The notes under the pieces: generated by a model | Told to the model about the DNA's origin: nothing | Databases searched by the model: none | The model's input: only the letters and a program-made list of their open reading frames with translations | Shown: positions 1,294 through 6,621 of the stretch, piece by piece | Position numbering within the stretch: the stretch's first letter is position 1 | Layout of the letters: each line of letters begins with the position of its first letter | Translations under genes and position numbers: made by a program | Source: a virus | Taxonomy: Duplodnaviria > Heunggongvirae > Uroviricota > Caudoviricetes | DNA: 6,621 nucleotides | Reading direction: 5' to 3' (one strand) | Virus record (IMG/VR): IMGVR_UViG_2563366937_000004 | Coordinates: 1-6,621 of that record

Positions 1294-3912
1294 ATGAGCA
1301 CGAAATTTAAAACCGTTATCACTACTGCCGGAGCCGCAAAGCTGGCAGCCGCCACTGTCCCCGGCGGGAAAAAAGTAACCCTGTCTGCAATGGCCGTGGG
1401 TGACGGTAATGGCAAATTGCCGGTGCCGGATGCCGGTCAGACGAAACTGGTGCATGAGGTCTGGCGTCACGCCCTGAATAAAGTCAGCGTGGATAATAAG
1501 AATAAAAACTATATCGTGGCTGAACTGGTTGTACCGCCCGAAGTGGGCGGCTTCTGGATGCGTGAGCTTGGCCTGTATGACGATGCCGGAACACTGATTG
1601 CGGTCGCCAACATGGCAGAAAGCTATAAGCCTGAACTCGCTGAAGGCTCCGGGCGTGCGCAGACCTGCCGCATGGTTATTATTGTCAGTAACGTGGCGTC
1701 CGTTGAGCTGAGTATTGATGCCAGCACAGTGATGGCGACGCAGGATTACGTCGATGACAAAATCGCAGAACATGAGCAGTCCCGCCGCCATCCTGACGCC
1801 ACGCTGACAGAAAAAGGCTTTACTCAGTTAAGCAGTGCAACAAACAGCACCAGTGAGTCATTGGCGGCAACGCCAAAAGCGGTCAAGGCAGCAAATGACA
1901 ACGCAAATTCACGTCTGGCGAAAAATCAGAATGGTGCAGATATCCAGGATAAATCAGCTTTTCTGGACAATGTTGGCGTTACCAGCCTGACGTTTATGAA
2001 AAACAATGGCGAAATGCCGCTTGATGCCGACCTGAATACATTTGGTCCTGTTAAGGCTTATCTGGGGATCTGGTCTAAAGCTACCTCAACTAACGCAACA
2101 CTGGAGAAAAATTTCCCGGAAGATAATGCTGTCGGTGTGCTTGAGGTTTTTGCTGCCGGCAATTTTGCAGGTACGCAACGCTTTACCACGAGAGACGGCA
2201 ATGTATACATACGCAGACTCGCCAATAAGTGGAATGGCTCTGATGGTCCGTGGGGCATATGGCGTCACACTCAATCAGCTACCCGCCCTTTGAGTACGAC
2301 TATAGACCTGAATACGCTTGGAGCCGCCGAACATCTTGGTTTATGGCGTAACAGTAGCTCGGCTATAGCTTCATATGAACGCAATTATCCAGAGGAAGGC
2401 GGCTTTGCTCAGGGGACGCTTGAGATCCTCGAAGGCGGGAATTATGGAAGAACGCAACGTTATACCACTCGCCGTGGAAATATGTATGTCCGCTGCCTTG
2501 CGGCAAGCTGGGATGCATCAAATCCGCAGTGGGAACCGTGGTTAAGAGTCGGTCATCAGTCAGAGAGTCGTTATTACGAAGGTGATTTAAATGTTCTAAC
2601 CGACCCCGGTATTTACAGTGTTACAGGAAAGGCAACAAACGGTCCGATGCTGGACACCGTTGGCGCGACACTACTTGGGATACTGGAAGTAATCAGACGT
2701 TTTGATGGTGTGTCTGTCTGGCAGCGTTACACAACCACAGGGAAATCAGAAACCACACAGGGGCGCACTTTTGAGCGCGTCTACGCCGGGAGCAAATGGA
2801 CCGAATGGCGAGAAGTATATAACTCCTTTTCGTTGCCTCTGAATCTGGGCATCGGTGGCGCAGTGGCAAAACTATCCAGTCTGGACTGGCAGACCTACGA
2901 CTTTGTGCCGGGCAGTCTGATAACCGTTCGGCTTGATAACATGACCAACATTCCCGACGGTATGGACTGGGGCGTCATTGATGGCAACCTGATAAACATC
3001 GCAGTGGGTCCGAGTGATGATTCCGGTACGGGGCGCTCAATGCATGTATGGCGCAGCACTGTAAGTAAAGCCAACTACCGCTTTTTTATGGCGCGCATTT
3101 CAGGAAATCCGGGAAGCCGCACGATTACAGCAAGACGAGTACCAATCATTGACGAAGCCCAGACATGGGGCGCGAAACAGACATTCAGCGGTGGCCTTTC
3201 AGGTGAGCTGTCCGGCAATGCTGCTACAGCAACAAAGCTGAAAACGGCAAGGACAATTAACGGCGTAAAATTTGACGGCTCGGCAAATATTGAAGCGTTT
3301 CCGCCAGGTGTTCCGCTGCCGTGGCCATCAGATACACCACCTGCAGGCTATGCAATTATGCAAGGCCAGACGTTTGATAAAGCAGCATATCCGAAACTGG
3401 CTATTGCCTATCCTTCTGGTGTTATTCCTGATATGCGCGGCTGGACAATCAAGGGCAAACCCGCCAGTGGGCGAGCCGTATTGTCACAGGAACAGGACGG
3501 GATTAAATCACATACTCACAGTGCCAGTGCGTCAAATACGGACTTAGGAACGAAAACGACCAGTTCATTTGATTACGGCACGAAGACAGTCAGTACGTTT
3601 AACTACGGAACAAAAACCACTAATACCACTGGTAACCATACACATACCATTTACAGAGGGAATGCCAATACTAATGGTGAAACCGGTAAAACAGGCTTTG
3701 ACAACCCATCGTTTAATGGCACATCAGGAGCTGCCGGGAATCATGCCCACACGGTAGATATTGGTGCACATAATCATACTGTTGGTATTGGTGCACATTC
3801 ACACACGGTTGCTATTGGCTCACACGGGCACTCTATTACCGTTAATGCTACAGGTAATACAGAAAACACCGTCAAAAACATCGCATTTAACTATATTGTG
3901 AGGCTTGCATAA
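1294..3912 (+). CDS. H: Tail fiber protein H (gpH-like), 872 aa, mosaic: P2-type N-terminal anchor, three tandem knob-like domains, and a C-terminal His-rich receptor-binding tip of T-even gp37/gp12 type.
   Basis: The N-terminus ([20 protein letters not shown] ... [37 protein letters not shown] ... [21 protein letters not shown]) matches the conserved P2 gpH N-terminal domain from memory. The C-terminus carries GTKT repeats and HxH repeats ([35 protein letters not shown]). It is the largest ORF, sits directly upstream of a Tfa-type chaperone gene, and its stop overlaps the G start. Confidence 0.9.
2029..2823 (+). repeat. Three tandem protein-level repeats of about 80 aa inside H (about aa 246-328, 338-421 and 430-510), each starting with a DLN[TV]L motif: knob-like tail fiber domains.
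   Basis: Aligning by eye, each copy shares DLNTxG ... G(I/L)W ... N(F/Y)PE ... G(V/T)LE(V/I) ... G(T/R)TQR(F/Y)TTRxGN(V/M)Y(I/V)R ... W ... W. Copies 1 and 2 are close; copy 3 is more diverged. Confidence 0.6.
3547..3618 (+). repeat. In-frame tandem 30-bp repeat, about 2.5 copies, encoding [10 protein letters not shown] / [10 protein letters not shown] / GTKTT within the H tip.
   Basis: Direct reading: ggaacgaaaacgaccagttcatttgattac / ggcacgaagacagtcagtacgtttaactac / ggaacaaaaaccact. Confidence 0.7.
3757..3837 (+). repeat. In-frame tandem 27-bp repeat, 3 copies, encoding the His-box units DIGAHNHTV / GIGAHSHTV / [10 protein letters not shown] further diverged unit GNHAHTV lies immediately upstream.
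   Basis: Direct reading: gatattggtgcacataatcatactgtt / ggtattggtgcacattcacacacggtt / gctattggctcacacgggcactctatt. Confidence 0.75.
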
Positions 3913-4490
3913 TGGCTTTCAGAATGAGTGCAGAAGCACAAACTATCCGCGTATTTAATTTACTTGATGGAACCAATGAATTTATTGGGGAAAGTGATGC
4001 GTATATTCCACCGTATACAGGTCTGCCTGCAAACAGTACAGATATTGCGCCGCCTGATATTCCTGCTGGTTATGCAGCCGTTTTCAATGCAGATGAAATG
4101 AAATGGGAACTGATGGAAGACCATCGCGGAAAGACCGTCTATGAAACGAAAACGGGAGCAGCCATTTATATTTCTGAACTTGGCGTATTACCTCCAGACG
4201 TGACAGCTATTTCCCCGGAGGGGGATTATCAGAAATGGAACGGAAATGCGTGGGTGAATGATGAGAATGCAGAGCGTGATGCACTTGTCAGAGCGGCGGA
4301 GTCTCAGAAGAAAGAGCTGATTGCATATGCAGGTGAAATTATTGCCACGCTGCAGGATGCTGTCGATTTAGATATGGCTACCGAGGAAGAAAAGTTAAGT
4401 CTGACACACTGGAAAAAATACCGTGTGCTACTGAATCGCGTTCAGCCGGAAGATGCTCCGGATATAGAATGGCCGGAAATGCCGCGATAA
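3912..4490 (+). CDS. G: Tail fiber assembly protein / chaperone (gpG, Tfa family), 192 aa.
   Basis: ATG at 3912 overlaps the H stop (TAATG). It lies immediately downstream of the tail fiber gene. The C-terminus ([26 protein letters not shown]) resembles the conserved Tfa C-terminal motif found in P2 G, lambda Tfa and Mu U-type chaperones. Confidence 0.85.
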
Positions 4491-4504
4491 ATTGTATTAG
4501 CTCG

Positions 4505-4575
4505 GATGTGAGTTTACACATCTATAGCACAGAGTAAAACCTAATCTGGCTGTCCGCTCTGTGCTAGGAGCGGAC
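4505..4575 (+). promoter_or_regulatory. Cluster of inverted repeats just downstream of G: gatgtg-N6-cacatc (4505-4522), and a 9-bp GC-rich stem tgtccgctc / gagcggaca (4551-4559 / 4568-4576) whose left arm can alternatively pair with agcacagag (4526-4534).
   Basis: Reverse-complement matches checked by hand. No U-tract follows the GC-rich stem, so it is not a canonical intrinsic terminator. It could be an operator, an RNA structure or a weak terminator or attenuator. Confidence 0.3.
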
Positions 4576-4599
4576 ATTACCAAGTAACATGCCTTAATC

Positions 4600-4746
4600 A
4601 AAAGGAAATGGTTAATATATGCCATCATTGTTTGAAAAATACGCAGTCATATATTGCTATGAACATTGTTGGTGCATTAATTTGCTTAAGAAACTACAAT
4701 TAAGCATCATAAAACACTCTTATGACTTTTAAGGCTCTACCGTATC
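4600..4746 (+). promoter_or_regulatory. AT-rich leader upstream of the cargo operon; possible own promoter. No compelling -35/-10 pair was identified.
   Basis: A roughly 250-bp non-coding AT-rich gap separates the G stop from the first cargo ORF. Candidate hexamers (TTGAAA at 4632-4637, TACAAT at 4695-4700) exist, but their spacing is not canonical. Confidence 0.2.
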
Positions 4747-5154
4747 ATGGCTAAGCGGATTCCTGGTGTTAGTAAAGAATGGTCTAACTATCTCCTTTGT
4801 TTATTATTACATATGTCTTTACCTCTCTTACCTTTGGGGTTCGAGACACTTGTGCGTTCCGATCACTTGCCATCAATACAAACATTAAATATTACAGCGG
4901 CGTTTTATGCGATCTCGATAGGGCTTTCTTCTAAGAACGTTGCTATGTTTGGTTTGGGTATATTCGTGAGCATTTGTTTCTCTGTTGTATTTGGGATTGT
5001 TTCTTCAAATCCTAATTCTGATCCTAATCTTAATTTTAATGATAACTTGTATTTTTATTCTCCAATTGCGTGTATTGTTGCTATATTTGTTATACATGCA
5101 TGTGAACGATATAACAGGCATGTTGCTGATTGTACACCATTTTTTGAGTTTTAA
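4747..5154 (+). CDS. Hypothetical small multi-pass inner-membrane protein, 135 aa, about 4 predicted TM helices.
   Basis: A 135-aa ORF in AT-rich DNA, where random ORFs are short. Hydrophobic segments: LLCLLLHMSLPLLPLGF, ITAAFYAISIGL, VAMFGLGIFVSICFSVVFGIVS, PIACIVAIFVIHAC. The N-terminus is positively charged (AKRIPGVSKEW). The Shine-Dalgarno is weak (AAGG at 4731-4734), so the exact start is uncertain; ATG 4813 is an alternative. Confidence 0.55.
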   Translation: MAKRIPGVSKEWSNYLLCLLLHMSLPLLPLGFETLVRSDHLPSIQTLNITAAFYAISIGLSSKNVAMFGLGIFVSICFSVVFGIVSSNPNSDPNLNFNDNLYFYSPIACIVAIFVIHACERYNRHVADCTPFFEF

Positions 5155-5163
5155 GGGGGTGCT

Positions 5164-5655
5164 ATGATTGATACAATTATCCCAGTAATACTATCAATTC
5201 TCCCGGCAATACTATCTATATTTAGCTTAGTAGCTGTTTTTATAGGTGCATTAGTATCTATCAGGTCTGTTAAAAAAAGACGTGAAATAGAAGTTCAGCT
5301 TTTTAATGAGATAATAAATCAACAAATTAAACAAACTAAAAGCAACCGTAAAAAGGATCTTGAAAATAGTGTTAATGAAATAGAAAATGAACTCAAGAGA
5401 AGAGTTGATATTTTGAATAAAATGCAAAAAGATCTAGAAGCAGTTTCAGAGAACAAATACTATTTTGATAAAGCAAAATTTCTTCGAAATGTCAAGTATG
5501 GAGAGTATTTATTAGAGATAAATGAAGCTGTGAATAATATTGATAATAAAAACAAACACTTACTAAATAACGCTCTTAATCAAAGCTCTGAGATTGGAAA
5601 AGTAAGATATCTTGGAAGAATAACAAAGGAAGCACTGGAAAAAACAGTAGGCTGA
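5164..5655 (+). CDS. Hypothetical membrane-anchored coiled-coil protein, 163 aa: one N-terminal TM helix followed by a charged K/E/N-rich, probably alpha-helical domain.
   Basis: Strong Shine-Dalgarno AAGGGGG (5153-5159) sits 4 nt before ATG 5164 and overlaps the upstream gene's TAA (5152-5154), indicating translational coupling. The TM segment is IIPVILSILPAILSIFSLVAVFIGALVSI, followed by RSVKKRRE (positive-inside) and then a heptad-like charged sequence. Confidence 0.65.
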   Translation: MIDTIIPVILSILPAILSIFSLVAVFIGALVSIRSVKKRREIEVQLFNEIINQQIKQTKSNRKKDLENSVNEIENELKRRVDILNKMQKDLEAVSENKYYFDKAKFLRNVKYGEYLLEINEAVNNIDNKNKHLLNNALNQSSEIGKVRYLGRITKEALEKTVG

Positions 5656-5838
5656 TCATTTTTTCCGCTCGTAATAGATAAACTCAAAGGTTCTTTTTGA
5701 GAGCCTTTGAGTTTCAATCTTACCAATATTACTCACCATTTCTTTAGCAGCAATTTGGGGACTATAACTTCTACTTCTTGCTGTGAGTTCAACCGATGGA
5801 TACAACACATTGGCTAAAACGCCCTGTGGGTGATTCAT
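5656..5838 (-). CDS. Questionable small ORF (60 aa), convergent with the cargo operon; possible small protein or remnant.
   Basis: ORF bounded by an in-frame stop 2 codons upstream of its ATG. There is no convincing Shine-Dalgarno. Its stop abuts the stop of the 5164..5655 gene within the palindrome TGATCA (5653-5658). GC content is intermediate. No recognisable motifs. Confidence 0.2.
   Translation of the reverse strand: MNHPQGVLANVLYPSVELTARSRSYSPQIAAKEMVSNIGKIETQRLSKRTFEFIYYERKK
5682..5712 (+). terminator. Hairpin (9-bp stem actcaaagg / cctttgagt, 13-nt loop) 27 nt downstream of the cargo operon stop; weak terminator candidate.
   Basis: Reverse-complement arms verified by hand. The loop is large and the downstream T-tract is poor, so confidence is low. 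Confidence 0.25.
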
Positions 5839-5898
5839 AGTCTAGCGTTTGGACTCCGTAAATTCACAGTTGGAAACTGAGCGAGTACAAATCAAGGC

Positions 5899-5926
5899 AG
5901 GCGGGCTGATTGCCCGCCTTTTCTTT
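5899..5926 (+). terminator. Rho-independent terminator: 8-bp GC-rich stem (aggcgggc / gcccgcct), 5-nt loop (tgatt), followed by a T-tract (tttctttat).
   Basis: Arms at 5899-5906 and 5912-5919 are exact reverse complements, with a T-rich run at 5919-5930. It is positioned where the tail fiber transcription unit would be expected to end, before the FI promoter. Confidence 0.6.
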
Positions 5927-6022
5927 ATCTGTTGTTTCATCCACTGGCCAGCCAGGCCAAATAGCGTCTCATGCTCTGCACAACAGAAAATAGTTGCACC
6001 CATTAACCACGGAGTTAAACGG
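5927..6022 (+). promoter_or_regulatory. Putative late promoter and leader of the tail sheath operon, with FI Shine-Dalgarno GGAG at 6011-6014. Contains inverted repeats ctgttgt (5929-5935) / acaacag (5980-5986) and tggcc (5945-5949) / ggcca (5955-5959).
   Basis: Position between a terminator and FI start. In P2, FI heads a separate late operon activated by Ogr. I could not find an exact TGT-N12-ACA Ogr-type site, so the promoter assignment is by position only. Confidence 0.3.
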
Positions 6023-6621
6023 ATGAGTGACTATCATCACGGCGTGCAGGTGCTGGAGATTAACGACGGCACCCGCGTCATTTCCACCGTATCCACTGCC
6101 ATTGTCGGCATGGTTTGCACTGCCAGCGATGCGGATGCGGAAACCTTCCCCCTCAATAAACCGGTGCTGATTACCAATGTGCAGAGCGCAATTGCAAAGG
6201 CCGGTAAAAAAGGCACGCTGGCGGCATCGTTGCAGGCCATCGCCGACCAGTCAAAACCAGTGACTGTTGTTGTGCGCGTGGAAGACGGCACCGGCGAAGA
6301 CGAAGAAACGAAACTCGCGCAGACCGTTTCCAATATCATCGGCACCACCGACGAAAACGGTCAGTATACCGGACTGAAAGCCCTGCTGGCGGCAGAGTCG
6401 GTAACCGGTGTTAAACCGCGTATTCTCGGTGTGCCGGGACTGGACACCAAAGAGGTGGCTGTTGCACTGGCATCAGTCTGCCAGAAGCTGCGCGCTTTCG
6501 GGTATATCAGCGCATGGGGCTGTAAAACCATTTCCGAGGTGAAAGCCTACCGCCAGAATTTCAGCCAGCGTGAGCTGATGGTCATCTGGCCGGATTTCCT
6601 CGCATGGGATACGGTCACCAG
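6023..6621 (+). CDS. FI: Tail sheath protein FI (gpFI-like), 3'-truncated by the window edge.
   Basis: ATG 6023 lies 8 nt after GGAG. My own translation begins [52 protein letters not shown]..., which matches the P2 tail sheath N-terminus from memory. The frame stays open to the window end. It was not in the ORF table only because it has no stop in the window. Confidence 0.9.

What the first reader, a model, noticed from the sequence alone, without database searches (positions are those of the whole stretch)
4747..5154. 135-aa four-helix membrane protein with an N/P/D-rich periplasmic-looking loop
It has four hydrophobic helices with a positive-inside N-terminus. Between TM3 and TM4 is a low-complexity loop, NPNSDPNLNFNDN, encoded by hexamer-periodic DNA. 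No catalytic motif is visible. Small polytopic membrane proteins encoded by prophages are often effectors or sensors of exclusion systems acting at the inner membrane. The start codon is uncertain because the Shine-Dalgarno is weak.
Basis: seen in the sequence. Interest (0 to 1): 0.55.

Follow-up and report, generated by a model that had tools for sequence, protein, structure and literature searches.

The report
Uncharacterised mobile two-gene membrane cassette
The 135-residue membrane protein is a real, full-length gene. It is always paired with the small membrane protein encoded just downstream, and the pair moves as a unit between prophage cargo sites, integron cassettes and a small plasmid, which makes it a good untested candidate for a new anti-phage or conflict system.

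Summary
Window 4747-5154 encodes a 135-aa four-helix membrane protein ("A") in an AT-rich insert of a P2-like prophage, between tail-fibre assembly gene G and tail-sheath gene FI. This is the Z/fun cargo slot.

The gene is not a fragment. Homologues align from Met1, dN/dS is 0.14, and a profile search finds 659 clusters at 50% identity across many phyla. It has no Pfam, NCBIfam, PADLOC or PDB relative.

The N/P/D-rich loop is a variable region with an allele-specific 18-nt insertion. The conserved core lies elsewhere: P26, P29 and E33 in helix 1, Y54, S62, G83, and an HxxERYNRH motif at the cytoplasmic end of helix 4.

In 46 of 48 loci, gene A is followed directly by a homologue of ORF 5164-5655 ("B"). 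B has one N-terminal membrane helix, a cytoplasmic helical domain and a conserved LxQxSxxGxxxY motif.

The pair, with its own conserved leader, sits in three different prophage cargo sites. It forms single integron cassettes in Vibrio and Luteimonas and lies on a 13.5-kb circular replicon. A few A homologues carry an N-terminal RNase H1 hybrid-binding domain.

Best reading: a new two-component membrane conflict or defence module, Rex-like in architecture but not homologous to RexAB. Its function is untested.

The parts
4493..4746 (+). Conserved non-coding leader that travels with the cassette. Contains a candidate promoter: TTGTTT 4628-4633, 16-nt spacer, TATATT 4650-4655.
   Evidence: About 80% nucleotide identity to L040, a lambdoid prophage where the cassette lies between the Q antiterminator and the holin. 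The homology starts exactly at window 4493. The Morganella prophage L011 matches from window 4567. The TATATT box is kept in all three contexts. The consensus scan did not call a promoter here because the -35 hexamer matches only 3 of 6 positions, so promoter function is inferred.
4747..5154 (+). Gene A: 135-aa four-helix inner-membrane protein (the finding).
   Evidence: ORF. Full-length match to phrog_22626. 58 close homologues and 659 clusters at 50% identity. AlphaFold2 pLDDT 90 with four helices. dN/dS 0.14. No Pfam, NCBIfam, PADLOC or PDB relative.
4822..4845 (+). Helix 1 motif P26-L-L-P29-x3-E33.
   Evidence: P26 is invariant. P29 and E33 are at least 90% conserved in 72 diverse homologues.
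5008..5046 (+). N/P/D-rich loop between helices 3 and 4 (residues 88-100), built of AATYYT hexamers and containing an allele-specific 18-nt insertion.
   Evidence: This is the variable region of the family alignment. The 18 nt are absent from L040 and from the 129-aa homologues. It is also the lowest-confidence part of the model, with block pLDDT 65-80.
5095..5121 (+). H117-A-C-E120-R121-Y-N-R-H125 motif at the cytoplasmic end of helix 4.
   Evidence: Invariant in 35 homologues. H117, E120, R121 and H125 are at least 90% conserved in 72 diverse homologues. It was used as the search pattern that recovered relatives in 26 genomes.
5153..5159 (+). Strong Shine-Dalgarno (AAGGGGG) for gene B. It overlaps the stop codon of gene A, and the two genes are 9 nt apart.
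   Evidence: Read from the sequence. The A-B spacing is -4 to +36 nt across loci, where more negative values come from over-long mechanical ORF calls for B. This is consistent with co-translation.
5164..5655 (+). Gene B: 163-aa protein with one N-terminal membrane helix, a KKRR stretch, then an all-helical cytoplasmic domain. Obligate partner of A.
   Evidence: ORF. A homologue lies directly downstream of gene A in 46 of 48 loci. AlphaFold2 pLDDT 77, all helical. dN/dS 0.30-0.40. No informative fold or family match.
5575..5610 (+). C-terminal motif of B: L138-x-Q140-x-S142-x2-G145-x3-Y149.
   Evidence: Invariant in 12 partners from 6 genera. Q140 and Y149 are at least 90% conserved in 27 diverse partners.
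5680..5714 (.). Strong hairpin 25 nt after the stop codon of B, lying inside the part of the cassette shared with L040.
   Evidence: Minimum free energy -23.4 kcal/mol, z-score -6.8 against shuffles. One stem pair changes G:C to T:A in L040. No T-run follows on either strand, so its role as terminator, RNA stabiliser or recombination site is unknown.
3912..4490 (+). Left border of the cargo slot: P2 gene G (tail-fibre assembly).
   Evidence: Caudo_TAP, E = 4e-41. Annotated as tail fiber assembly in Peduovirus P24A7b.
5899..6026 (+). Right border: bidirectional G+C-rich terminator 5899-5919, the P2 late F-promoter region, and the FI (tail sheath) start codon at 6024.
   Evidence: Terminator scan. 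Window 5843-6030 is shared with about 1,700 E. coli P2-like prophages that carry other cargo. P2 reference annotation.

Best explanation
**What it is.** Gene A (4747-5154) is the four-helix membrane subunit of an uncharacterised two-protein inner-membrane module. Its partner B (5164-5655) is anchored by one N-terminal helix and puts a helical domain into the cytoplasm. Both genes, a roughly 250-nt conserved leader and a 3' hairpin form a self-contained mobile cassette of about 1.25 kb (window ~4493-5746). In this window the cassette sits in the G/FI (Z/fun) cargo slot of a P2-like prophage.

**Most likely role (inferred).** A lysogenic-conversion module that protects the host and prophage in conflicts with other phages or mobile elements.

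**Most likely mechanism (inferred, Rex-like).** B senses or regulates on the cytoplasmic side. It contacts the conserved cytoplasm-facing cluster of A (S61/S62, H117, E120, R121, N123, H125). On a trigger, A compromises the membrane or the proton-motive force and aborts the infection.

**Hint about the trigger.** Some family members carry an RNase H1-type hybrid-binding domain on the cytoplasmic N-terminus of A. This suggests the trigger or target is nucleic acid (RNA:DNA hybrid or dsRNA) at the inner face of the membrane.

**Shown here:** the gene is real and full length, the four-helix fold, the obligate A-B pairing, cassette mobility, the hotspot location, and the domain fusion.

**Inferred:** expression in the lysogen, physical A-B contact, anti-phage function, and membrane damage as the output.
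For: **Real, constrained gene.** 58 close homologues, 659 clusters, dN/dS 0.14, AlphaFold2 pLDDT 90.

**Obligate pair.** A B-family gene lies directly downstream in 46 of 48 loci, spanning Proteobacteria, Gemmatimonadota, Dehalococcoidia, Verrucomicrobiia, Planctomycetota (Gemmataceae), Cyanobacteria and Ca. Stahlbacteria; the one Bacteroidota (Saprospiraceae) locus, L031, is an exception with a different partner. Genes overlap by up to 4 nt or lie up to 36 nt apart.

**Autonomous mobile unit.**
- The same cassette with its leader occupies three different prophage cargo sites: P2 G/FI (window); a lambdoid nin-type region in Morganella; and between Q and the holin in L040.
- The pair is exactly one integron cassette bounded by attC sites in V. 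cholerae, V. anguillarum and Luteimonas.
- It lies on a 13.5-kb circular replicon that also carries ParA and a reverse transcriptase.
- It sits in a Tn3/IS-rich region in L008.
- In 33 of 35 loci where the comparison is possible, its GC content is below that of its flanks.

**Rarity.** 2 of 5,426 complete E. coli genomes, against about 1,700 that carry the same P2 flank.

**Hotspot.** P2 fun(Z) occupies the same slot and blocks T5. The locus is defence-enriched (PMC9519451).

**Links to conflict systems.**
- N-terminal Cauli_VI hybrid-binding domain in four cluster representatives, 44-54 bits against a cut-off of 21. Each is still followed by a B-like gene.
- A GmrSD restriction enzyme lies 1.4 kb away in L048.
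- In L031 the partner is replaced by a protein with an EAD11 adaptor domain and a membrane helix.
- A PIN toxin pair and a GAAD-domain protein are neighbours in L007 and L008.

**Architecture.** A 4-helix membrane protein plus a partner matches RexAB-type abortive-infection systems (PMC7542560).
Against: - There is no phenotype, expression or interaction data.
- Neither protein matches any PADLOC-DB v2 model.
- Neither is homologous to RexB or RexA (hhalign probability 1% and 0.2%).
- In a pooled scan of 147 neighbouring proteins from 21 loci, most neighbours are housekeeping genes. Only a handful match defence models, and no third gene recurs. Defence-island enrichment was therefore not demonstrated.
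- Near-invariant His/Glu/Arg residues conserved across phyla are more typical of an enzyme or ligand-binding site than of a simple pore.
- Two-gene integron cassettes are often toxin-antitoxin pairs.
Confidence: 0.5

Rival explanations
1. Superinfection exclusion at the entry step. The A-B complex sits in the inner membrane and blocks genome injection or the membrane channel used by incoming phages, without killing the cell, as proposed for T4 Imm, P22 SieA or HK97 gp15.
For: Both proteins are predicted inner-membrane proteins. The cassette sits in prophage cargo sites. Small prophage membrane proteins acting at entry are well known (background knowledge).
Against: Entry blockers are usually narrow, fast-evolving and lineage-specific. 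This family keeps the same polar residues across at least seven phyla, and both conserved motifs face the cytoplasm rather than the periplasm. The periplasmic loops are the variable parts. Integron and plasmid copies occur in bacteria without related prophages. No PHROG annotated as superinfection exclusion matches.
Confidence: 0.13
2. Addiction or toxin-antitoxin module. A is a membrane toxin held in check by B (or the reverse), and the pair serves to stabilise the element that carries it (integron array, plasmid, prophage) rather than to stop phages.
For: Two-gene, tightly coupled operon. Single integron cassettes holding two genes in Vibrio and Luteimonas arrays; such cassettes are often toxin-antitoxin pairs (background knowledge). 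Presence on a small circular replicon. B evolves faster than A.
Against: No similarity to any toxin or antitoxin family in Pfam or PADLOC. Both components are membrane proteins, which is unusual for protein-protein toxin-antitoxin pairs. The hybrid-binding-domain and EAD11 variants are easier to explain by sensing than by addiction. Many toxin-antitoxin systems also defend against phages, so this rival overlaps with the best explanation.
Confidence: 0.15
3. A non-conflict membrane function. The pair is a small enzyme, transporter or metal- or lipid-binding complex that gives a physiological benefit (envelope homeostasis, stress tolerance) and merely hitch-hikes on mobile elements.
For: Near-invariant H/E/R/Y/N residues at a membrane interface look like a binding or catalytic site. 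Several loci in non-proteobacterial phyla are flanked by housekeeping genes such as citrate synthase, EF-P or tRNA synthetases. The family is broad, with 659 clusters.
Confidence: 0.12
4. B is a membrane-anchored HEPN-type RNase and A its membrane partner, so the module would kill by RNA cleavage.
For: The Shewanella partner (L017) has an RNKLVH motif and sub-threshold hits to three HEPN families (best 24.2 bits, E = 3.5e-5). L020 (HHRNLLVH) and L034 (REQMVH) have an Rx4H motif at the same aligned place.
Confidence: 0.05
5. Not a functional gene: a chance ORF or a remnant of a larger disrupted gene.
For: Weak Shine-Dalgarno. The phage record NC_049390 annotates only a 69-aa ORF from an internal Met.
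Against: Full-length homologues of 129-145 aa in many genera, dN/dS 0.14, a confident fold, and PGAP calls the 135-aa form.
Confidence: 0.01

Closest known systems
RexAB-type prophage abortive-infection systems (lambda RexA/RexB; mycobacteriophage Sbash gp30/gp31 and Butters gp30/gp31; Gordonia phage CarolAnn)
   Same: A prophage-encoded two-gene module with a small four-pass inner-membrane protein (RexB is 144 aa) and a second protein that works with it. It is carried as non-essential cargo and proposed to act at the membrane (PMC7542560).
   Different: No sequence or profile similarity (hhalign 1% and 0.2%). The partner here is a small single-pass membrane protein, not a roughly 280-aa soluble RexA/DUF4747-like protein. 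Gene order is membrane protein first. The family extends far beyond phages, into integron cassettes and many phyla. No phenotype is known.
Cargo of the P2 G/FI (Z/fun) variable locus: P2 fun(Z), retron Ec67 in P2-EC67, and the PD systems found there by Vassallo et al. 2022
   Same: Same insertion slot between tail-fibre assembly gene G and tail-sheath gene FI. AT-rich relative to the phage backbone. Flanked by the same conserved P2 sequences.
   Different: Unrelated proteins: fun(Z) is a single 528-aa protein on the opposite strand. Neither A nor B matches any PADLOC model, a library that I understand to include the PD systems; this was not verified for every one.
Rst_2TM_1TM_TIR of P2-like phage AC1 (Rousset et al. 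2022) and other defence systems with small membrane effectors (CBASS/Pycsar/retron TM effectors)
   Same: Small multi-pass and single-pass membrane proteins encoded together in a P2-like prophage hotspot. Membrane proteins are thought to be the killing effectors (PMC9122126).
   Different: That system sits in the other P2 hotspot (old/tin) and needs a TIR signalling enzyme. Here there is no third gene and no nucleotide-signalling domain. No PADLOC match.
5:2 membrane motors (MotAB, ExbBD, TolQR, ZorAB)
   Same: A multi-pass membrane protein encoded next to a single-pass protein with an N-terminal anchor. ZorAB is an anti-phage example.

Membership tests
RexB / RexAB-type abortive-infection system | Small four-pass inner-membrane protein | tested here: met
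   Four helices: hydropathy and AlphaFold2 pLDDT 90.
RexB / RexAB-type abortive-infection system | Sequence or profile homology to RexB | tested here: not met
   hhalign of the 72-sequence family profile against lambda RexB: probability 1%, E = 0.055.
RexB / RexAB-type abortive-infection system | Adjacent soluble RexA-like (DUF4747-type) partner | tested here: not met
   The partner is a 163-aa single-pass membrane protein. hhalign against RexA gives probability 0.2%. No Pfam hit.
RexB / RexAB-type abortive-infection system | Infection-triggered membrane depolarisation and phage exclusion | not testable with these tools
   Needs phage challenge and membrane-potential assays.
Cargo of the P2 G/FI (Z/fun) hotspot | Located between gene G and gene FI of a P2-like prophage, with the conserved P2 flanks | tested here: met
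   G at 3912-4490 and the FI start at 6024. The flanks are shared with about 1,700 E. coli genomes carrying other cargo. P2 fun(Z) occupies the same slot.
Cargo of the P2 G/FI (Z/fun) hotspot | Foreign base composition relative to the phage backbone | tested here: met
   26-37% GC against about 50-60% in the flanks.
Known anti-phage defence families (PADLOC-DB v2.0.0) | Significant match of either protein to a defence-system model | tested here: not met
   A: no hit at E up to 10. B: best hit E = 0.17.
Anti-phage defence system (generic) | Enrichment next to known defence genes | tested here: inconclusive
   A pooled scan of 147 neighbours from 21 loci gave a few hits (bSEFIR, NsnA, PD-T4-2_A, PDC-S11, PDC-S54, methyltransferases) among mostly housekeeping genes, with no background comparison. 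GmrSD is adjacent in L048 and a reverse transcriptase is adjacent on the Photobacterium replicon.
Integron gene cassette | Bounded on both sides by attC recombination sites | tested here: met
   Met in related loci, not in this window. VCR-type attC sites flank the pair in V. cholerae L010 and V. anguillarum L016. In Luteimonas L003 the pair lies between two consecutive copies of a 20-copy attC repeat.
Phage holin | Small membrane protein encoded in the lysis cassette next to an endolysin | tested here: not met
   The slot lies between tail genes. In L040 the holin and endolysin are separate genes further downstream. No holin family appears in Pfam or PHROGs.
Small 4-helix membrane enzyme or transporter families (SMR/EmrE, MAPEG, CrcB, DsbB, cytochrome b561) | Match to the family profile or fold | tested here: not met
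HEPN RNase (for partner B) | Rx4-6H motif and a profile match above threshold | tested here: not met
   The window's B has no such motif at the aligned place. Only L017 gives sub-threshold hits (24.2 bits against 28.4), and an Rx4H motif occurs in 3 of 27 partners.
Type II-like toxin-antitoxin pair | One component toxic alone and neutralised by the other | not testable with these tools
   Needs expression of each gene alone and of both together.

The most novel reading that the evidence does not exclude
A and B define a new, widely distributed family of minimal two-protein membrane immune modules. The four-helix protein would be a regulated intramembrane effector (channel or lipid-directed enzyme) gated through its invariant cytoplasmic HxxERYNRH site. 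Nucleic-acid intermediates of invading elements (RNA:DNA hybrids or dsRNA) would be the trigger, sensed by B in most members and by a fused RNase H1-type hybrid-binding domain in some.
Probability: 0.25. Interest if true: 0.75.

Novelty: new variant of a known kind. Interest (0 to 1): 0.55.

Why it matters
**If the pair protects against phages.** It would add a very compact defence system (about 0.9 kb of coding sequence) with no recognisable domains. Current defence-finding tools miss it. It is nevertheless spread over many bacterial phyla, and prophages, integrons and plasmids pass it around.

**A handle on sensing.** The hybrid-binding-domain fusions offer a way to study how a membrane effector could be coupled to nucleic-acid sensing.

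**Value independent of function.**
- It defines a protein family that Pfam lacks, with at least 659 clusters at 50% identity.
- It corrects a truncated annotation in the reference phage record.
- It gives clear residues to mutate.

**If the pair is a toxin-antitoxin or a physiological module.** It would still be a new class of paired membrane proteins.

Tried and rejected
**Family and fold searches that gave nothing specific**
- Pfam, NCBIfam and PADLOC on A and B.
- Pfam on 72 A homologues and 27 B homologues: only scattered chance hits.
- Profile searches against PDB sequences.
- The afdb50 library was unavailable.

**Homology to RexAB.** Rejected.

**HEPN lead for B.** Traced to one sequence and rejected as a family feature.

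**Modelling the A-B complex.** No complex model exists.

**Reaching distant loci.** The broad alignment was too diverse for the pattern-based locus search, so the narrower alignment was used.

**B family breadth.** A profile search for B in the word-indexed database returned only 18 proteins, so the size of the B family is not measured independently of A.

**RNA features.** Rfam found nothing at 4400-6100. A three-sequence fold of the leader showed no convincing conserved structure. Tandem Repeats Finder found no array in the loop.

**Literature.** Searches by accession, by PHROG number and by "Cauli_VI" found no paper on this family. The integron-cassette and P2/P4 hotspot papers I read do not describe it in the passages I read; supplementary tables were not checked.

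**Other distribution checks.** tblastn against PLSDB plasmids gave no match.
Full report
**1. Setting**

The window is the tail region of a P2-like (Peduovirus) prophage.
- Baseplate J is at 65-760, gpI at 753-1283, tail fibre H at 1294-3912, and tail-fibre assembly G at 3912-4490.
- The tail sheath gene FI starts at 6024.
- Between G and FI the GC content drops from about 50-60% to 26-37%.
- In phage P2 this slot holds fun(Z), a non-essential gene annotated as blocking T5.
- Vassallo et al. 2022 describe the slot as a second defence-enriched locus of P2-like phages (PMC9519451).
- About 1,700 of 5,426 complete E. coli genomes carry the same right-hand flank. Only two carry this insert, as does Peduovirus P24A7b, at 97.9% identity over 4491-6030.
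- An Escherichia ruysiae genome encodes an identical protein A.

**2. The observation**

The ORF 4747-5154 encodes 135 residues.
- Hydropathy shows four membrane segments.
- An AlphaFold2 model built on 35 homologues gives four helices (10-36, 44-61, 65-87, 99-127) at mean pLDDT 90 and pTM 0.81.
- Basic residues cluster at the N-terminus (K3, R4, K10) and in the short loop between helices 2 and 3. The loop between helices 3 and 4 carries only acidic residues. An N-in / C-in topology is therefore the natural reading (inference).
- The loop NPNSDPNLNFNDN (nt 5008-5046) is encoded by six AATYYT-like hexamers.

**3. It is a real, complete gene**

- A word-indexed search found 58 homologues of 124-153 aa in Escherichia, Pectobacterium, Morganella, Proteus, Luteimonas, Pseudoalteromonas, Photobacterium, Vibrio and metagenomes.
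- They align from Met1, and MAKRIPG is widely shared. This settles the start codon despite the weak Shine-Dalgarno.
- A profile search of 1.84 billion cluster representatives found 659 clusters at E ≤ 1e-3 and 459 at E ≤ 1e-10.
- dN/dS against two diverged prophage copies is 0.14.
- The protein matches phrog_22626 (unknown function) over its full length.
- PGAP annotates the 135-aa form. The phage RefSeq record annotates only a 69-aa piece from an internal Met, which is an annotation error.

**4. What is conserved and what is not**

Among 35 homologues the invariant residues are H22, P26, L27, P29, E33, Y54, I58, S62, G83, H117, E120, R121, Y122, N123 and H125.

Among 72 more distant ones, P26 is invariant. 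P29, E33, Y54, S62, G83, H117, E120, R121 and H125 remain at least 90% conserved, while H22 does not.

The family signature therefore has two parts:
- a PLLPxxxE stretch in the outer half of helix 1;
- an HxxERYNRH stretch where helix 4 leaves the membrane on the cytoplasmic side, close to the conserved S61-S62 turn between helices 2 and 3.

In this allele it has 18 extra nucleotides compared with the closest relatives, which are 129 aa. This is most simply explained as slippage in a short repeat. The partner gene also has an in-frame 21-nt insertion (ILSILPA) in its membrane helix.

**5. No known relatives**

- Pfam, NCBIfam and PADLOC give nothing for A. This remains true when 72 members are scanned one by one.
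- A profile search finds no PDB sequence relative.
- Foldseek against viral models finds nothing.
- hhalign against lambda RexB gives 1% probability.

**6. The partner**

ORF 5164-5655 (B) starts 9 nt after the stop codon of A and has a strong AAGGGGG ribosome-binding site.

B has one N-terminal membrane helix followed by KKRR and an all-helical domain. AlphaFold2 gives pLDDT 77. By the positive-inside rule that domain is cytoplasmic.

Its close homologues are few, but the genomic contexts are decisive. I collected 49 sources carrying a gene A: the window plus loci from exact-protein look-ups, a scan of GTDB species genomes, and IMG/VR.
- 48 have sequence downstream of A.
- 46 of these encode a B-family protein directly after A, overlapping by up to 4 nt or up to 36 nt apart.
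- The two exceptions are L031 and L038. In L031 (Saprospiraceae) the next gene encodes an EAD11 adaptor domain followed by a membrane helix. In L038 an IS21 element follows a truncated A.

B proteins share three features: the membrane helix, a basic stretch with an (A/I)ExxL motif, and a C-terminal LxQxSxxG(R)xxY motif. In the window these motif residues are L138, Q140, S142, G145 and Y149.

B evolves faster than A, with dN/dS of 0.30-0.40. It has no Pfam, PDB or fold relative of note and no similarity to RexA.

**7. The pair is a mobile unit**

- The nucleotide homology between this window and a lambdoid prophage (L040) covers window 4493-5746. It starts 2 nt after the stop of the upstream gene in both phages. 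It includes the whole 254-nt leader and a 3' hairpin.
- In L040 the cassette lies between the Q antiterminator and the holin.
- In Morganella prophages it lies in the nin-type region, between the replication/Dam genes and the DUF1367, DUF968 and Q genes. Homology there begins at window 4567.
- In V. cholerae and V. anguillarum the two genes are exactly one cassette between VCR-type attC sites.
- In Luteimonas they lie between two consecutive copies of a 20-copy attC repeat of a chromosomal integron.
- In Photobacterium iliopiscarium they lie on a 13.6-kb contig with an exact 127-nt terminal overlap. This indicates a circular replicon, which also carries a ParA-like gene and a reverse transcriptase.
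- In a metagenomic contig they sit among Tn3 and IS fragments.
- In 33 of 35 loci where the comparison is possible, the pair has lower GC than its flanks.
- The cassette is rare in isolates: no PLSDB plasmid and one sequenced phage.

**8. Hints about function**

- Four cluster representatives of family A (P0085, P0101, P0121, P0141) carry an N-terminal Cauli_VI domain. This is the RNase H1 N-terminal domain that binds RNA:DNA hybrids and dsRNA. They score 44-54 bits against a cut-off of 21.
- By the predicted topology this domain is cytoplasmic. These variants keep a B-like gene downstream.
- In one of these loci (L048) a GmrSD type IV restriction enzyme lies 1.4 kb downstream of the pair.
- The EAD11 substitution in L031 links family A to the adaptor domains of NTPase-based conflict systems. 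That assignment rests on the Pfam description and background knowledge.
- Other neighbours include a PIN toxin pair and a GAAD-domain protein.
- Against this, a pooled scan of 147 neighbours from 21 loci is dominated by housekeeping genes, with only a few defence-model hits and three integrases. I cannot claim defence-island enrichment.

**9. Interpretation**

The data show a conserved, self-sufficient, horizontally mobile two-protein membrane module. The conserved sites of both subunits face the cytoplasm.

The most economical reading is a conflict or defence cassette, resting on four things: its location in three different prophage cargo sites and in integron cassettes; its own leader, which probably carries a promoter; its rarity; and the nucleic-acid-binding and adaptor-domain variants.

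By architecture the closest known systems are the RexAB-type abortive-infection pairs, in which a four-pass membrane protein is controlled by a partner (PMC7542560). This pair is not a member of that family: two of three testable defining features fail.

The strongly conserved His/Glu/Arg cluster suggests a binding or catalytic site rather than a passive pore, so I hold the "membrane depolarisation" step only loosely.

My probability estimates are:
- conflict or defence module of any mechanism: about 0.5 (Rex-like abortive mechanism within that: about 0.25-0.3);
- entry exclusion: about 0.13;
- toxin-antitoxin or addiction module: about 0.15;
- physiological membrane function: about 0.12;
- HEPN-based RNase: about 0.05.

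**10. Verdict**

The finding is best described as one half of an uncharacterised, widely distributed two-gene membrane cassette. It is a new variant of the known kind [quoted passage not shown] and is worth an experimental test.

Noticed in passing
window 5164-5655 (about nt 5185-5215): Gene B of this allele has an in-frame 21-nt insertion (ILSILPA) inside its membrane helix, compared with all other enterobacterial homologues. It looks like a tandem duplication of PVILSI / PAILSI. Both genes of this cassette copy therefore carry small slippage-type insertions.
   Followed up: partly
window 5680-5714: A very stable hairpin (-23.4 kcal/mol, z = -6.8) lies 25 nt after gene B, with no T-run on either strand. 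It is kept, with one compensatory pair change, in the lambdoid prophage copy L040. It could be a terminator, an RNA stabiliser or a recombination site.
   Followed up: partly
window 4493-4746: The 254-nt leader is about as conserved between unrelated prophages (~80%) as the coding sequence of gene B. It includes a TATATT box at 4650-4655 and 24 identical nucleotides before the ATG. There is no Rfam match and no convincing conserved fold from three sequences.
   Followed up: partly
window 5656-5838, minus strand: A 60-aa ORF is annotated as hypothetical protein gp25 in Peduovirus P24A7b, but PGAP does not call it in E. coli AR_0081. It overlaps the hairpin and only its 3' part lies in the shared cassette sequence. 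It is probably not a gene.
   Followed up: no
L001 3455-3664 (NC_049390 16389-16598): The RefSeq phage record annotates gene A as a 69-aa protein starting at the internal Met67. The homologues show that the 135-aa form is correct.
   Followed up: yes
window about 3650-3900 (C-terminal part of tail fibre H): There is a run of His-x-His repeats ([33 protein letters not shown]) near the C-terminus of the 872-aa tail fibre. GC content drops to 41-47% from about 3450 onwards, which suggests an exchanged receptor-binding tip.
   Followed up: no
L021 and L036 (Photobacterium iliopiscarium NZ_PYOO01000026): The 13,621-nt contig has an exact 127-nt terminal overlap inside gene A, so it is a circular replicon. 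It carries a ParA-like gene, a 397-aa reverse transcriptase about 800 nt downstream of the A-B pair, and a glyoxalase-family gene.
   Followed up: partly
L017 5384-5752, L020 4245-4625, L034 5381-5770: Three B homologues have an HEPN-like Rx4H motif (RNKLVH, RNLLVH, REQMVH) in the otherwise variable middle region. The Shewanella protein gives sub-threshold hits to three HEPN Pfam families.
   Followed up: partly
L031 4950-6232 (Saprospiraceae MAG): Here gene A has a long insertion in its loop between helices 3 and 4. It is followed not by B but by a 246-aa protein with an N-terminal EAD11 adaptor domain and a central membrane helix. The pair is inserted between citrate synthase and the DUF2200 and EF-P genes.
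   Followed up: partly
L047-L050; proteins P0085, P0101, P0121, P0141: These variants of protein A have an N-terminal RNase H1-type hybrid-binding domain (Cauli_VI). In L048 the pair sits next to an IS1595 transposase and a GmrSD type IV restriction enzyme, on a contig full of small phage-like ORFs.
   Followed up: partly
L007 6462-7229 and L023 5393-5986: Two B homologues carry extra C-terminal domains. L007 has a DUF1822-annotated extension, in a context with NRPS, PIN and Uma2 genes. L023 (Ca. Stahlbacteria) has an unassigned extension of about 70 aa.
   Followed up: no
L003 1-12405 (Luteimonas sp. MC1572): There are twenty copies of a ~57-nt attC-type repeat and several duplicated 300-nt and 180-nt cassettes within 12 kb. 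This is a dense chromosomal integron array of small unannotated genes.
   Followed up: partly
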